From the human T2T-CHM13v2.0 reference genome, Homo sapiens: a stretch of DNA of 64,000 nt. The stretch covers positions 15,456,001 to 15,520,000 of the forward strand of contig CP068257.2 of NCBI GenBank assembly GCA_009914755.4, written 5' to 3'. The translations under genes and the position numbers were made by a program. The notes beneath the pieces were generated by a model. It did not search any database, was not told the origin of the DNA, and worked only from the letters and a program-made list of their open reading frames with translations. This document shows positions 45,201 through 56,988 of this stretch, in pieces (position 1 is the first letter of the stretch; every line of letters starts with the position of its first letter).

Positions 45201-45977
45201 AAAATAGGTGGCTACGTTAAGTAAACATTTCTAGTTTGTTTTGGTCACAGATGAAACACAGATTCAGTGAGCACATTACAAAGTAGACTTTAAATTACCC
45301 ATTATTTATTATCATTGCATTAATTCTAGTAGTGGAGTTATTTATTTATTTGTGGCTACTATTTGAGAAGTATTCTTCAATACCAGATTGACTTTTAAAA
45401 TTTGAGAAATAATGGCATTCTGGGGACAGAATAGCAAGCACCTTATTGGGTGATGAGTCATGTCTTCAGGGTATATATTAGCTGCTTCTGGCAGTCCTCA
45501 GCATTTGAGGAGTATCTTAATGATGCTTCTCCAAAGCATTTTTAAAAATAGAAAATTAATGAATAAACATAAAACATTATTTACATTTCTTCTTGAGATA
45601 CTTAATTTTTGTGTTTGTGACAGCTTTGGCATGCCAGGTAGGATTTTATGACTCTGCAAGAACTATAGCATTATTGGGCTTGGAGTGCCCTCTAATGCAG
45701 AAATGACTCCGGTGGCCGAAAACATAGATCAAGACGTTCAATTCCCATCAAAACACCTGGAAAGCTTTCCAAAGAAGGACTGGTACAGCAAAGACTACAA
45801 TAAATACTACTAACTCCCCAGACATTGATAGGCATCCAAAGGCATCAAGGCCGTTCGAGAAAATATGATCTCACCAAACAAACTAAATAAGGCAACCATC
45901 ACCAATTCTGGAGAGAGAGAGATATGTGATCTTTCAGACAGAGAATTCAAAATAGCTGTTTTTTGTTTGTTTTTTGG

Positions 45978-46285
45978 CTTTTTTTTTTTTTTTTTTTTTT
46001 TGGAAACAGAGTTTTGCTCTTGTTGCCCAGGCTGGAGTGCAATGGTGCGATCTCAGCTCACCGCAATCTCCACCTCCCGGGTTCATGTGATTCTCCTGCC
46101 TCAGCCTCCTGAGTACATGGGATTACAGGCATGTGCCATCACGCCTGGCTAATTTTGTATTTTTAGTAGAGATGAGGTTTCTCCATGTTGGTCAGGCTAG
46201 TCTCGAACTCCCGACCTCAGGTGATCTACCTGCCTCGGCCTCCCAAAGTGCTGGGAATACAGGTGTGAGCCACTGCACCCAGCTG
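45978..46285 (-). mobile_element. Alu (minus orientation) inserted near the N-terminus of the old L1 ORF1, with TSD
   Basis: (T)26GGAAACAGAGTTTTGCTCTTGTTGCCCAGGCTGGAGTGCAATGGTGCGATCTCAGCTCACCGCAATCTCCACCTCCCGGGTTCATGTGATTCTCCTGCCTCAGCCTCCTGAGTACATGGGATTACAGGCATGTGCCATCACGCCTGGCTAATTTTGTATTTTTAGTAGAGATGAGGTTTCTCCATGTTGGTCAGGCTAGTCTCGAACTCCCGACCTCAGGTGATCTACCTGCCTCGGCCTCCCAAAGTGCTGGGAATACAGGTGTGAGCCACTGCACCCAGCTG. Flanks AAATAGCTGTTT / AATAGCTGCTTT. The ORF1 peptide continues across it (...EFKIAV | LRKLN...). Confidence 0.9.
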
Positions 46286-54900: not shown

Positions 54901-56988
54901 CTCCTGTTCAACATAGTATTGGAAGTTCTGGCCAGGGCAATCAGGCAGGAGAAAGAAATAAACGGTATTCAGTTAGGAAAAGAGGAAGTCAAGTTGTCCC
55001 TGTTTGCAGATAACATGATTGTATATTTAGAAAACCCCATTGTCTCAGCCCAAATCTCCTTCAGCTGATAAGCAACTTTAGCAAAGTCTCAGGATACAAA
55101 ATCAATGTGCAAAAATCACAAGCATTCCTATACACCAATAACAGACAAACAGAGAGCCAAATCATGAGTGAACTCCCATTCACAATTGCTTCAAAGGGAA
55201 TAAAATACCTAGGAATCCAACTTACAAAGGATGTGAAGGACCTCTTCAAGGAGAACTACAAACCACAGCTTAACAAAATGAAAGAGGACACAAACAAATG
55301 GAAGAACATTCCATGCTCATGGATAGGAAGAATCAATATCATGAAAATGGCCATACTGCCCAAGGTAATTTATAGATTCAATGCCGTCCCCATCAAGCTA
55401 CCAATGTCTTTCTTCAAAGAATTGGAAAAAAAACTACTTTAAAGTTCATATGGAACCAAAAAAGAGCCTGCATTGCCAAGTCAATCCTAAGCCAAAAGAA
55501 CAAAGCTGGAGGCATCACACTACCTGACTTCAAACTATACTACAAGGCTACAGTAACCAAAACAGTGTGGTACTGGTACCAAAACAGAGATATAGACCAA
55601 CAGAACAGCACAGAGCCCTCAGAAATAAAACCACATGTCTACAATCATCTGATCTTTGACAAACCTGACAAAAACAAGAAATGGGGAAAGGATTCCCTAT
55701 TTAATAAATGGTGCTGGGAAAACTGGATAGCCATATGTAGAAAGCTGAAACTGGATCCCTTCCTTAAACCTTATACAAAAATTAATTCAAGATGGATTAA
55801 AGATTCAAATATTAGACCTAAAAACATAAAATCCCTAGAAGAAAACCTAGGCATTACCATTCAGGACATAGGCATGGGCAAGGACTTCATGACTAAAACA
55901 CTAAAAGCAATGGCAACGAAAGCCAAAATAGACAAATGGGATCTAATTAAACTGAAGAGCTTCTGCACAGCAAAATAAACTAACCATCAGAGTGAACAGG
56001 CAACCTAAAGAATGGGAGAAAATTTTTGCAATCTACCCATCTGACAAGGGGCTAATATCCAGAATCTACAAAGAACTGAAACAAATTTACAAGAAAAAAT
56101 CAAACAGCCCCATCAAAAAGTGGGCAAAGGAAATGAACAGACACTTCTCAAAAAGAAGACCTTTATGCAGCCAACAGACACATGAAAAAATGTTCATCAT
56201 CACTGGCCATCAGAGAAATGTAAATCAATACCACATGAGATACCATCTCACACCAATTAGAATGGCGATCATTAAAAAGTCAGGAAACAACAGGTGCTGG
56301 AGAGGATTTGGAGAAATAGGAACACTTTTACACTGTTGGCAGGAGTGTAAACTAGTTCAACCATTGTGGAAGTCAGTGTGGTGATTCCTCAAGGACCTAG
56401 AACCAGAAATACCATTTGACCCAGCCATCACATTACTGGATATATACCCAAAGGATTACAAATCATGCTGCTATAAAGACACATGCACATGTATGTTTAT
56501 CGTGGCATTATTCACAATAGCAAAGACTTGGAACCAACCCAAATATCCATCAATGATAGACTGGATTAAGAAAATGTGGCACATATACACCATGGAATAC
56601 TATGCAGCCATAAAAAAAGGATGAGTTCATGTCCTTTGCAGGGACATGGATGAAGCTGGAAACCATCATTCTGAGCAAACTATCACAAGGACAGAAAACC
56701 AAACACTATGTGTTCTCACTCACAGGTGGGAATTGAACAATGAGAACACTTGGACACAGGGTGGGGAACAACACACACCGGGGCCTGTCATGGGGTGGGG
56801 GGCTGGGGGAGGGATAGCATTAGGAGAAATACCTAATGTAAATGATGAGTTAATGGGTGCAGCACACCAACATGGCACATGTATACATGTGTAACAAACT
56901 GCACGTTGTGCACATGTACCCTAGAACTTAAAGTATAGTAAGAAAAAAGAAAATAAAATAAATCCTTAAAAAAATAAAAACCAAAATA
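51962..56988 (+). mobile_element. 5'-truncated LINE-1 (older L1PA/L1PB-like), from mid-ORF1 through ORF2 and 3'UTR with A-rich tail
   Basis: ORF1: ...ELKTMAQQLRDACTSITSQWDQEEERVSVTEDQINEIK...QEIWDYVKRPNLHLMGVPESNRENGTKLENTLEDIIQENFPNLARQANIQIQEIQTTPQRYSSRRTTTRHIIVRCTKVK..MKEKMLRAATEKGRVTHKGKPIRLTADLSAQILQARREWGPIFNILKEKNFQPRISYPAKLSFISEGEIKFFTDKQMLRD... ORF2 runs from about 52850: EN, RT (...[13 protein letters not shown]...[38 protein letters not shown]...[12 protein letters not shown]), C-terminal domain (...[32 protein letters not shown]...). 3'UTR ends ...TGTACCCTAGAACTTAAAGTATAGTAAGAAAAAAGAAAATAAAATAAATCC... Confidence 0.9.

What the first reader, a model, noticed from the sequence alone, without database searches (positions are those of the whole stretch)
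45660..56988. Compound LINE-1 locus with two abrupt strand switches that neither simple insertion nor twin priming explains
Seen in sequence: the cluster has three L1 blocks. (a) A plus-strand old L1 (ORF1 through the ORF2 EN domain) ends with no 3' end or poly-A at about 49327, inside ...GAAAAGCCTGGGACCTGATGAATTCTTTGCTGAATTT (ORF2 ...[12 protein letters not shown]). (b) From the next base the sequence is L1 ORF2 on the opposite strand, starting at an L1HS-equivalent position of about 4940 (RC = [17 protein letters not shown]) and descending to about 2210 at 51960, with no poly-T. (c) At about 51962 a third L1 begins on the plus strand in mid-ORF1 and runs to a genuine A-rich 3' terminus at 56988. 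Blocks (a) and (b) overlap by more than 1 kb in L1 coordinates and look like different subfamilies. Block (a) has the L1M-like ...NFKKIEVTSSIFFAHKRVNLEVNN...; block (b) has the L1P-like ...[25 protein letters not shown].... Blocks (b) and (c) overlap by about 2.6 kb and also differ in subfamily. A single twin-priming event cannot produce this, because it yields an inverted 5' segment drawn from sequence upstream of the direct segment, with at most a small overlap. A more likely cause is a non-TPRT rearrangement, such as deletion or inversion between oppositely oriented L1 copies, or endonuclease-independent insertion at a break. Two further events followed: the solo THE1 LTR and the L1 (c) landing exactly at a 5'-truncation point.
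Basis: partly seen in the sequence, partly recalled or inferred. Interest (0 to 1): 0.5.

Follow-up and report, generated by a model that had tools for sequence, protein, structure and literature searches.

The report
Three decayed L1 copies abutting
The locus is three LINE-1 copies of clearly different ages lying head-to-head and tail-to-tail, best explained by separate insertions plus ordinary DNA loss, so it is a routine piece of repeat-rich primate DNA and not a new rearrangement mechanism.

Summary
Three L1 blocks lie at 45.66-56.99 kb, with strand switches at 49329|49330 and 51961|51962 and no poly-A or poly-T at either junction.

Mapped on human ORF2p (numbering checked against PDB 8uw3):
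- (a) is on the + strand, from the ORF1 start to ORF2 residue ~481.
- (b) is on the - strand, ORF2 residues 877 down to 106. That is about L1HS nt 4621 to 2307, not 4940 to 2210.
- (c) is on the + strand, from ORF1 codon ~48 to the 3' UTR and A-rich tail.

The L1-coordinate overlaps are 1.1 kb for (a)/(b) and 2.3 kb for (b)/(c).

The blocks fall into three age grades. In a relative-rate test against L1HS ORF2p, (c) alone matches at 215 sites and (b) alone at 51. (b) has 18 stop codons against 7 in (c), and only (b) hosts a THE1-type solo LTR with a 5-bp duplication. Twin priming is therefore rejected.

No target-site duplications are detectable, and no remnant of (a) or (b) lies in the 5.6 kb to the right.

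The most economical reading is this. Two convergent old L1s lost both 3' ends in one deletion. A younger L1PA then inserted into (b), and the DNA beyond it was lost, either at insertion or later.

A TTTT/A motif sits exactly at the (a)/(b) junction. It leaves a minor chance of an internally primed, 3'-truncated insertion.

All of these mechanisms are already described. Interest is low.

The parts
45660..49329 (+). Block (a): an old L1 of L1M grade. It runs from 5' UTR and the ORF1 start (ATG at 45865) to ORF2 residue ~481. It has no 3' end and is interrupted by two Alus and a 32-bp L1 3'-end fragment.
   Evidence: tblastn places ORF1p 83-338 and ORF2p 1-451 here. The last bases align to other L1s through ...GAATT(C/T)TA. 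Identity to L1HS ORF2p is 38.5% over residues 107-450, and it is symmetric with the L1M-grade copy (f) at 61 versus 62 sites. The 5' limit was not verified.
45971..46287 (-). Alu inserted into (a). It is read as antisense, with poly-T on the left, and is flanked by an ..AATAGCTG.. duplication.
   Evidence: Direct reading. Alu matches appear in self-BLAST. Coordinates.
48500..48531 (-). A 32-bp, extremely 5'-truncated L1PA 3' end with a short poly-A, inserted into (a). Its 10-bp target-site duplication CAAAGAGTAA lies at 48490-48499 and 48532-48541.
   Evidence: Direct reading. BLAST of (c) 4955-4988 against (a), minus strand, 88% identity. Coordinates.
48917..49233 (+). Alu inserted into (a), flanked by a ..CATAAATAGA.. 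duplication.
   Evidence: Direct reading. Self-BLAST. Coordinates.
49325..49330 (.). The (a)/(b) junction, TTTTA|G. There is no filler. TA at 49328-49329 fits both elements. TTTT/A matches the L1 endonuclease motif on the strand appropriate for a minus-oriented L1.
   Evidence: Alignments A1 and A2. The motif occurs about 3 times per kb in (a).
49330..51961 (-). Block (b): an older L1P-grade ORF2 fragment, residues 877 down to 106 (about L1HS nt 4621-2307). It lacks both its 3' end with poly-A and its 5' part. It is split by the solo LTR at 49384-49726.
Evidence: tblastn. A single collinear BLAST HSP to (c) at 76.5% and to (d) at 76.8%. Junction alignments.
49384..49726 (-). THE1/MSTA-type (MaLR) solo LTR nested in (b). 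Its 5-bp target-site duplication GATGC lies at 49379-49383 and 49727-49731.
   Evidence: Coordinates. It aligns to the two LTRs of the full-length MaLR element at 8.07-10.34 kb.
51954..51966 (.). The (b)/(c) junction, 51961|51962. There is no filler. Up to about 4-6 bp (CTTC..) could belong to either element.
   Evidence: Alignments A3 and A4.
51962..56985 (+). Block (c): an L1PA-grade element, 5'-truncated at ORF1 codon ~48. It is collinear through ORF2 (52899-56733) and the 3' UTR (L1 body ends at 56942), followed by an A-rich tail to about 56985. It carries no nested insertions.
   Evidence: tblastn. A single 4.6-kb HSP to the L1PA-like contig L001 at 91.5%, about 90% in every 500-column stretch but one, which reaches 98%. 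84% identity to L1HS ORF2p over residues 107-800.
56990..62590 (.). Right flank. No L1 remnant is detectable, so neither the 3' half of (a) nor the 5' part of (b) resumes here.
   Evidence: Self-BLAST found nothing. ORF2p and ORF1p tblastn gave no hit between 56733 and 62970.

Best explanation
The cluster results from three separate L1 retrotranspositions, widely spaced in time, plus ordinary DNA loss.

1. An L1M-grade element (a) inserted on the + strand.
2. An older L1P-grade element (b) inserted on the - strand, within or just downstream of (a). The two 3' ends then faced each other.
3. A THE1-type element entered (b) and is now a solo LTR.
4. One non-homologous deletion removed the 3' part of (a) (from ORF2 residue ~481 on), anything in between, and the 3' 1.4 kb and poly-A of (b). 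This created the blunt junction at 49329|49330.
5. Much later an L1PA-grade element (c) inserted by target-primed reverse transcription. Its poly-A end lies in what is now the right flank, and its 5' end is joined inside (b) at ORF2 codon 106. The DNA between was lost, either as a target-site deletion at the time of insertion or by a later deletion next to the tail.

Shown: the anatomy, the three age grades, the absence of duplications and the absence of remnants.

Inferred: the order of steps 2 to 4, and that the losses were deletions and not non-classical insertions.
For: - Three age grades. Identity to L1HS ORF2p over residues 107-450 is 38.5% for (a), 61.7% for (b) and 77.3% for (c).
- Three-way tests. 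(c) alone matches L1HS at 215 sites and (b) alone at 51 (p = 4e-25). (b) alone matches at 95 and (a) alone at 42. (a) is symmetric with the L1M copy (f) at 61 versus 62, and (b) with the L1P copy (d) at 58 versus 57.
- Stop codons over the same 689 residues number 18 in (b) and 7 in (c).
- Nested inserts agree with this order. (a) holds two Alus and a mini L1PA, (b) holds a THE1-type solo LTR with an intact duplication, and (c) holds none.
- Both (a) and (b) lack 3' ends and converge on each other. One deletion therefore explains that junction.
- No target-site duplication was found for (c), for (b) or for the whole cluster. Best local scores were 7, 5.5 and 9, against shuffle medians of 8, 6 and 9.5.
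- No L1 remnant lies in the 5.6 kb to the right.
- The window is L1-rich, and it shows both a clean nest ((d), ORF2p 801|805 around a full MaLR element) and another internally deleted L1 ((f), lacking residues 767-1111).
- L1-into-L1 nesting is very common. Levy et al. counted 21,559 sense and 9,899 antisense cases (PMC2836564). Giordano et al. counted 307,412 transposon clusters (PMC1914374).
- Random deletions that mimic 3'-truncated insertions are acknowledged in PMC1920257. Target-site deletions at L1 insertions are well documented (PMC4859970).
Against: - No orthologous pre-insertion or pre-deletion allele could be examined, so no deletion is directly demonstrated.
- The (a)/(b) breakpoint coincides with a perfect TTTT/A endonuclease motif on the correct strand. 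That motif occurs about 3 times per kb, so the chance is roughly 1-3% after allowing for breakpoint ambiguity and motif variants. This hints that the junction could be a reverse-transcription initiation site and not a random deletion breakpoint.
- The scenario needs two independent losses of DNA at the two ends of (b).
Confidence: 0.6

Rival explanations
1. (b) is a non-classical, 3'-truncated L1 insertion into (a). Either reverse transcription was primed internally on the L1 RNA from an endonuclease nick at TTTT/A (49325-49329), or an L1 cDNA or RNA was captured at a double-strand break (endonuclease-independent insertion). In both cases the 3' half of (a) would have been lost at that event or at the later arrival of (c).
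For: - (b) lacks its 3' 1.4 kb and any poly-T, with no filler at the junction.
- TTTT/A lies exactly at the junction, on the strand that would prime a minus-oriented L1.
- 2 bp (TA) are shared at the junction.
- Precedents exist. One is the set of 21 human non-classical L1 insertion (NCLI) loci, 18 of which have target deletions (PMC1920257). Another is the EYA1 L1 insertion: 3'-truncated, no poly-A, no duplication, 17-kb deletion, classed as internal priming (PMC4859970).
Against: - Internal priming is described as using internal A-rich RNA stretches (PMC4859970). The L1 sequence at residue 877 (CAAACUAUAC) is not A-rich, and only the terminal T of the primer would pair with the template.
- The endonuclease-independent criteria require a site that deviates from the endonuclease consensus (PMC1920257). 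Here the site matches it.
- The consensus of the other L1 copies at this spot is GAATTCTA, so the fourth T may be a later C-to-T change.
- These events are rare compared with deletions accumulated over tens of millions of years.
- The 5' side of (b), where a duplication could be tested, has been overwritten by (c).
Confidence: 0.2
2. An inversion with one breakpoint in (a) at ORF2 residue ~481 and the other inside a formerly plus-oriented L1P flipped the L1P fragment against (a). The reciprocal junction was later removed when (c) arrived.
For: The strand switch occurs at non-homologous L1 positions without filler. Retrotransposon-associated inversions are known (PMC2603318, listed).
Against: - The reciprocal products, meaning the inverted 3' part of (a) and the 3' end of the L1P, are nowhere within 5.6 kb to the right. 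An extra large deletion is therefore needed.
- L1-mediated inversions by recombination join homologous positions, which is not the case here.
- Inversions are much rarer than deletions.
Confidence: 0.07
3. (b) and (c) arrived together in one event. This would be twin priming with a long duplication, or a chimeric insertion in which the inverted 5' segment was copied from a different transcript containing an old L1.
For: - The layout, an inverted segment followed by a direct segment with poly-A, is that of a 5' inversion, and the junction has no filler.
- Antisense chimeras of L1 with other RNAs (5S, tRNA, U5) exist (PMC13174262).
Against: - The overlap is 2.31 kb, against a median of 12 bp.
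- There is strong asymmetry relative to L1HS (215 versus 51 sites) and in stop codons (18 versus 7).
- No flanking duplication was found.
- The same-RNA version is excluded. The version using a different RNA is not excluded but has no positive support.
Confidence: 0.03
4. One or both junctions are assembly errors that join different L1 copies.
For: L1-rich DNA is prone to mis-assembly. Neither junction string was found in metagenome contigs, so there is no independent confirmation.
Against: - The blocks differ from each other by 23-32%, far too much for read mis-joining.
- The junctions join opposite strands at non-homologous positions.
- The metagenome scans say nothing about a vertebrate locus.
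Confidence: 0.02

Closest known systems
Nested or clustered transposon insertions (L1 into L1), as catalogued by Giordano et al. 2007 (PMC1914374) and Levy et al. 2010 (PMC2836564)
   Same: Younger elements sit inside or against older ones in an L1-rich region. The age order (a) older than (b) older than (c) follows the usual rule that young elements interrupt old ones. The THE1-type solo LTR in (b) and the Alus in (a) are textbook nests with target-site duplications.
   Different: For (b) in (a) and for (c) in (b), the host element does not resume on the far side and no duplication is visible. These two junctions therefore need loss of DNA in addition to insertion.
L1 insertion-associated target-site deletion (reviewed in PMC4859970; Han et al. 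2005, cited there)
   Same: (c) has a normal 3' end and A-rich tail, is 5'-truncated, lacks a target-site duplication, and is flanked on its two sides by DNA that does not match up.
   Different: The pre-insertion allele is not available. A later deletion next to the tail would look identical.
Twin-priming 5' inversion (Ostertag and Kazazian 2001; features quantified in PMC12016303)
   Same: The order is the same: an inverted segment, then a direct segment ending in poly-A, with no filler.
   Different: The two segments overlap by 2.3 kb where a few bp is usual. They differ in age and subfamily, and no flanking duplication is present.
Endonuclease-independent (non-classical, NCLI) L1 insertion (Sen et al. 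2007, PMC1920257) and internal priming (PMC4859970)
   Same: (b) is truncated at both ends, has no poly-A, has no recognisable duplication, and is associated with missing target DNA.
   Different: The junction matches the endonuclease motif, which runs against the endonuclease-independent criteria. The priming site in the L1 is not A-rich, which runs against internal priming.

Membership tests
Twin-priming 5'-inverted L1 insertion | An inverted 5' segment directly followed by a direct 3' segment with a poly-A tail | tested here: met
   (b) on the minus strand at 49330-51961 is followed by (c) on the plus strand at 51962-56985 with an A-rich tail.
Twin-priming 5'-inverted L1 insertion | The inverted segment maps just upstream of the direct segment on the L1, with a small gap or overlap (median overlap 12 bp, PMC12016303) | tested here: not met
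   The inverted segment covers ORF2 residues 106-877. The direct segment runs from ORF1 codon ~48 to the end, giving an overlap of about 2.31 kb.
Twin-priming 5'-inverted L1 insertion | Both segments copied from one RNA, so the same subfamily and the same age | tested here: not met
   (c) alone matches L1HS at 215 sites and (b) alone at 51 (p = 4e-25). Stop codons number 7 and 18. Only (b) hosts a THE1-type LTR.
Twin-priming 5'-inverted L1 insertion | Target-site duplication flanking the whole unit | not tested
   The sequence to the left of (b) was never compared with the sequence to the right of (c). One search compared only the two flanks of (c), the two ends of (b), and left-of-(a) against right-of-(c). 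None of these scored above the shuffled controls.
Clean nested insertion (transposon within transposon) | The host element resumes at the same consensus position after the insert, with a target-site duplication | tested here: not met
   This fails for (b) in (a) and for (c) in (b). No L1 remnant lies at 56990-62590 and no duplication was found. It is met for the solo LTR in (b) (GATGC) and for the MaLR element in (d) (ORF2p 801|805).
Endonuclease-independent (NCLI) L1 insertion, criteria of Sen et al. 2007 | 3' truncation and absence of a poly-A tail | tested here: met
   (b) starts at ORF2 residue 877 with no T run beyond the TTTT that aligns to (a).
Endonuclease-independent (NCLI) L1 insertion, criteria of Sen et al. 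2007 | Insertion site deviates from the TTTT/A endonuclease consensus | tested here: not met
   The junction reads GAATTTT/A on the priming strand. The fourth T may be a later change, because other L1 copies have GAATTCTA.
Endonuclease-independent (NCLI) L1 insertion, criteria of Sen et al. 2007 | Absence of target-site duplications | tested here: inconclusive
   No similarity was found between the two ends of (b) (score 5.5 against a shuffle median of 6). However, the original 5' flank of (b) has been replaced by (c).
Endonuclease-independent (NCLI) L1 insertion, criteria of Sen et al. 2007 | An outgroup pre-insertion site showing that the truncation is original and not a later deletion | not testable with these tools
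   No vertebrate genome collection is available. Exact-protein look-ups and junction scans returned nothing usable.
L1 insertion-mediated (target-site) deletion, for block (c) | An L1 with a 3' end and poly-A but no target-site duplication | tested here: met
   The L1 body ends at 56942 and the A-rich tail runs to about 56985. The best flank match scores 7 against a shuffle median of 8.
L1 insertion-mediated (target-site) deletion, for block (c) | The ancestral allele carries extra DNA at the empty site | not testable with these tools
   This needs orthologous loci from species that lack (c).
Recombination between L1 copies (deletion or inversion by non-allelic homologous recombination) | The junction lies at homologous positions of the two L1s, producing a chimeric collinear element | tested here: not met
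   (a) stops at ORF2 residue ~481 and (b) starts at residue 877 on the opposite strand. Only 2 bp are shared.

The most novel reading that the evidence does not exclude
Block (b) may not be a normally inserted L1 that later lost its 3' end. It may instead be an ancient non-classical insertion. In this reading, reverse transcription started inside the L1 RNA from an endonuclease nick at the TTTT/A now at 49325-49329 (or an L1 copy patched a break there), and the 3' half of the host L1M was lost. That would make it an old, fixed counterpart of the disease-causing EYA1-type event (3'-truncated, no poly-A, large deletion).
Probability: 0.15. Interest if true: 0.25.

Novelty: already known. Interest (0 to 1): 0.08.

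Why it matters
It matters little beyond annotation. The locus is a good worked example of how convergent or nested L1 copies plus DNA loss can imitate an exotic rearrangement. It also shows that a relative-rate test against L1HS ORF2p can separate twin priming from independent insertions when no repeat library is at hand.

If the minor reading were true (an ancient internally primed or break-repair L1 insertion), it would add one old case to a class known so far mainly from young human-specific loci and from disease alleles. It would not change how L1 biology is understood.

Tried and rejected
1. Orthologous or independent copies of the locus.
- Exact-protein look-ups failed for the ORF spanning the (b)/(c) junction and for an ORF in the right flank.
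- A 126-residue ORF from (c) returned only a 4.6-kb JGI metagenome contig, L001. L001 is an L1PA-like sequence that is 91.5% identical to (c) overall but 98.4% identical over one 500-column stretch. It is probably a collapsed assembly of host L1 reads and not an ortholog.
- Exact scans of metagenome contigs for both junction strings found nothing.

2. Subfamily consensus sequences. Khan et al. 2006 is not held in the paper library. Formal subfamily names such as L1MA, L1PB or L1PAn were therefore not assigned. Only grades relative to L1HS and to other copies in the window were used.

3. Target-site duplication searches for (c), for (b) and for the whole cluster were all at or below shuffle medians. 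A visually suggestive ATATATTTAAGA / ATATGTATAAGA pair scored below the null median.

4. The same-RNA origin of (b) and (c). Their 76.5% pairwise identity alone could have fitted two equally decayed copies of one source. The asymmetry test rejected this.

5. (c) as a mosaic, for example a twin-primed piece of (b) fused to another L1. This was rejected because identity to L001 is about 90% in every 500-column stretch except the one that reaches 98%, so no part of (c) looks older.

6. Remnants of the 3' half of (a) or the 5' part of (b) to the right. None were found.
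Full report
**Observation.** Base composition already shows the strand pattern. AT skew is positive over 46-49 kb, negative over 50-52 kb and positive again over 52-57 kb.

ORF2p matched PDB 8uw3_A over 1-1275 without indels. ORF1p matched 2yko, 2ykp and 6fia. The residue numbering is therefore tool-verified.

tblastn of these proteins against the window gives three blocks:
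- **Block (a), + strand.** ORF1p 83-338 lies at 46382-47134 and ORF2p 1-451 at 47611-48916. After an Alu the block continues to ORF2 residue ~481 at 49329.
- **Block (b), - strand.** ORF2p 107-859 lies at 51959-49729, plus residues 860-877 at 49383-49330 beyond a solo LTR.
- **Block (c), + strand.** ORF1p from about residue 48 to 338, then ORF2p 1-1275 at 52899-56733, then a 3' UTR ending at 56942 and an A-rich tail to about 56985.

String matching fixes the junctions at 49329|49330 and 51961|51962. Neither junction has a poly-A or poly-T run or any filler.

Taking the ORF2 start as L1HS nt 1991 (my knowledge of L1.3), (b) spans about nt 4621 to 2307. The overlaps are 1.13 kb for (a)/(b) and 2.31 kb for (b)/(c). 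Block (a) does not stop in the endonuclease domain. It runs to residue ~481.

**Are the blocks different elements?** Pairwise DNA identities are 76.5% for (b)-(c), 76.8% for (b)-(d) and 79.9% for (c)-(d). Each of these three is 69-70% identical to (f). Here (d) is the L1 at 5.0-12.0 kb and (f) is the L1 at 32.6-37.1 kb.

A value of 76.5% could in principle arise from two equally decayed copies of one source. I therefore used L1HS ORF2p as a common reference. Over shared residues, (c) alone agrees with L1HS at 215 sites and (b) alone at 51, a binomial p of 4e-25. (b) has 18 in-frame stops against 7 in (c).

By the same test (a) pairs with (f) at 61 versus 62 sites, with 30 shared non-L1HS residues. 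(b) pairs with (d) at 58 versus 57 sites. This gives three grades: L1M-like for (a), older L1P-like for (b) and L1PA-like for (c).

Nested inserts agree with that order. (a) carries two Alus and a 32-bp L1PA 3' end, each with target-site duplications. (b) carries a THE1/MSTA-type solo LTR at 49384-49726 with a perfect 5-bp duplication, GATGC. (c) carries nothing. (c) is collinear and about 90% identical to an L1PA-like contig in every 500-column stretch but one, which reaches 98%, so it is not a mosaic.

**Twin priming.** The (b)-(c) layout has the topology of a 5' inversion. However, documented twin-priming products have the inverted and direct cDNAs abutting or overlapping by a median of 12 bp (PMC12016303). 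Here the overlap is 2.3 kb, the two parts differ in age, and one search found no duplication beside (c), at the ends of (b) or outside the whole cluster (the left-of-(b) against right-of-(c) pair was not compared). Twin priming from one RNA is rejected.

**Junction anatomy.** At the (a)/(b) junction, alignment to other L1 copies shows (a) homologous through ...GAATT(C/T)TA, and (b) in sense orientation homologous through ...CTTCAAACTA. The dinucleotide TA (49328-49329) fits both elements.

The + strand reads GAATTTT/A. This is the L1 endonuclease motif, on the strand that would prime a minus-oriented L1. TTTTA occurs about 3 times per kb in (a), so the coincidence has a chance of roughly 1-3%. 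The other L1 copies have GAATTCTA at this spot, so the fourth T may be a later change.

At the (b)/(c) junction, up to 4-6 bp (CTTC..) could belong to either element. That is compatible with the microhomology often seen at L1 5' junctions.

No target-site duplication is detectable for (c), for (b) or for the whole cluster. The 5.6 kb to the right of (c) contains no L1 remnant.

**Explanation.** Both (a) and (b) lack 3' ends and point towards each other. One non-homologous deletion across the two 3' ends therefore produces the first junction.

The second junction follows if (c) inserted into (b) and the DNA between its 5' attachment point and its priming site was lost. That loss could be a target-site deletion at insertion or a later deletion next to the tail. 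Both processes are well documented (PMC4859970). PMC1920257 explicitly warns that random deletions mimic 3'-truncated insertions.

The setting is ordinary:
- By my sum of the tblastn-mapped L1 spans, about a third of the window is L1.
- The window contains a clean nest as a positive control. This is (d), split at ORF2p 801|805 by a full MaLR element.
- It also contains another L1 with an internal loss, (f), which lacks residues 767-1111.
- Genome-wide, tens of thousands of L1-in-L1 nests are known, about 9,900 of them antisense (PMC2836564). There are about 307,000 transposon clusters (PMC1914374).

I put this reading at about 0.6.

**Rivals.**
- **(b) is a non-classical 3'-truncated insertion, about 0.2.** This could be internal priming from the TTTT/A nick or endonuclease-independent capture at a break. 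In favour are the motif, the absence of poly-A, and the EYA1 precedent in PMC4859970. Against it, the priming site in the L1 is not A-rich, the endonuclease-independent criteria require a non-consensus site, and such events are rare.
- **An inversion, about 0.07.** This needs an additional large deletion to remove the reciprocal products.
- **A single chimeric (b)+(c) event using a different, old L1-bearing transcript, about 0.03.** This has no positive support.
- **Assembly error, about 0.02.** This is implausible given the 23-32% divergence between blocks.

Recombination between inverted L1s is not supported because the junction is at non-homologous positions.

**Limits.** No vertebrate genome collection was available. 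Exact-protein look-ups and junction scans gave no ortholog, and subfamily consensus sequences could not be obtained. The order and nature of the DNA losses are therefore inferred. The 5' limit of (a) near 45660 is unverified.

**Verdict.** But the locus is an ordinary composite of three L1 insertions of different ages plus DNA loss, and every candidate mechanism is already described. Interest is low.

Noticed in passing
window 48490-48541: A 32-bp L1PA 3'-end fragment (rc ...CACCCTAAAACTTAAAGTATAATAAAAAAAAA) lies on the minus strand inside block (a). It is flanked by a perfect 10-bp target-site duplication, CAAAGAGTAA. This is an extreme 5' truncation of an L1 insertion.
   Followed up: partly
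window 8070-10343, within L1 (d) at 5029-11752: A full-length THE1/MSTA-type MaLR element is cleanly nested in an L1P-grade element. Its LTRs lie at about 8084-8383 and 10001-10300 and are 87% identical to each other. The host L1 resumes at ORF2p residue 805 after stopping at residue 801. It serves as a positive control for what an undisturbed nest looks like.
   Followed up: partly
window about 20000-27000: A C-rich stretch (GC skew down to -0.43) carries remnants of an endogenous retrovirus on the + strand. There is a retroviral aspartyl protease hit (PF00077) at 23068-23760, and a 21/42-bp tandem repeat at 21468-21668.
   Followed up: partly
window 32638-37110: The L1M-grade element (f) lacks ORF2p residues about 767-1111 exactly where an Alu sits (36363-36639). 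This is another L1 in the window with an internal loss of about 1 kb.
   Followed up: no
window 62590-64000: This is the 5' end of a much younger L1PA. It has a 5' UTR starting ...GGAGGGAAGAGCCAAGATGGCCGAATAGGAAC and an ORF1 92% identical to human ORF1p. It runs off the end of the window.
   Followed up: no
L001 (JGI metagenome 3300032031, contig Ga0326364_1119555), 1-4586: This metagenome contig is an L1PA-like sequence with long open stretches. It is about 90% identical to block (c) overall but 98.4% identical over positions about 2490-2990. That suggests a collapsed or chimeric assembly of host L1 reads in a metagenome.
   Followed up: partly
window 61322-61368: A perfect 23-bp tandem duplication (TAAGAGGTCTTGCAATATTTTTC, two copies) lies in otherwise unique DNA.
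   Followed up: no
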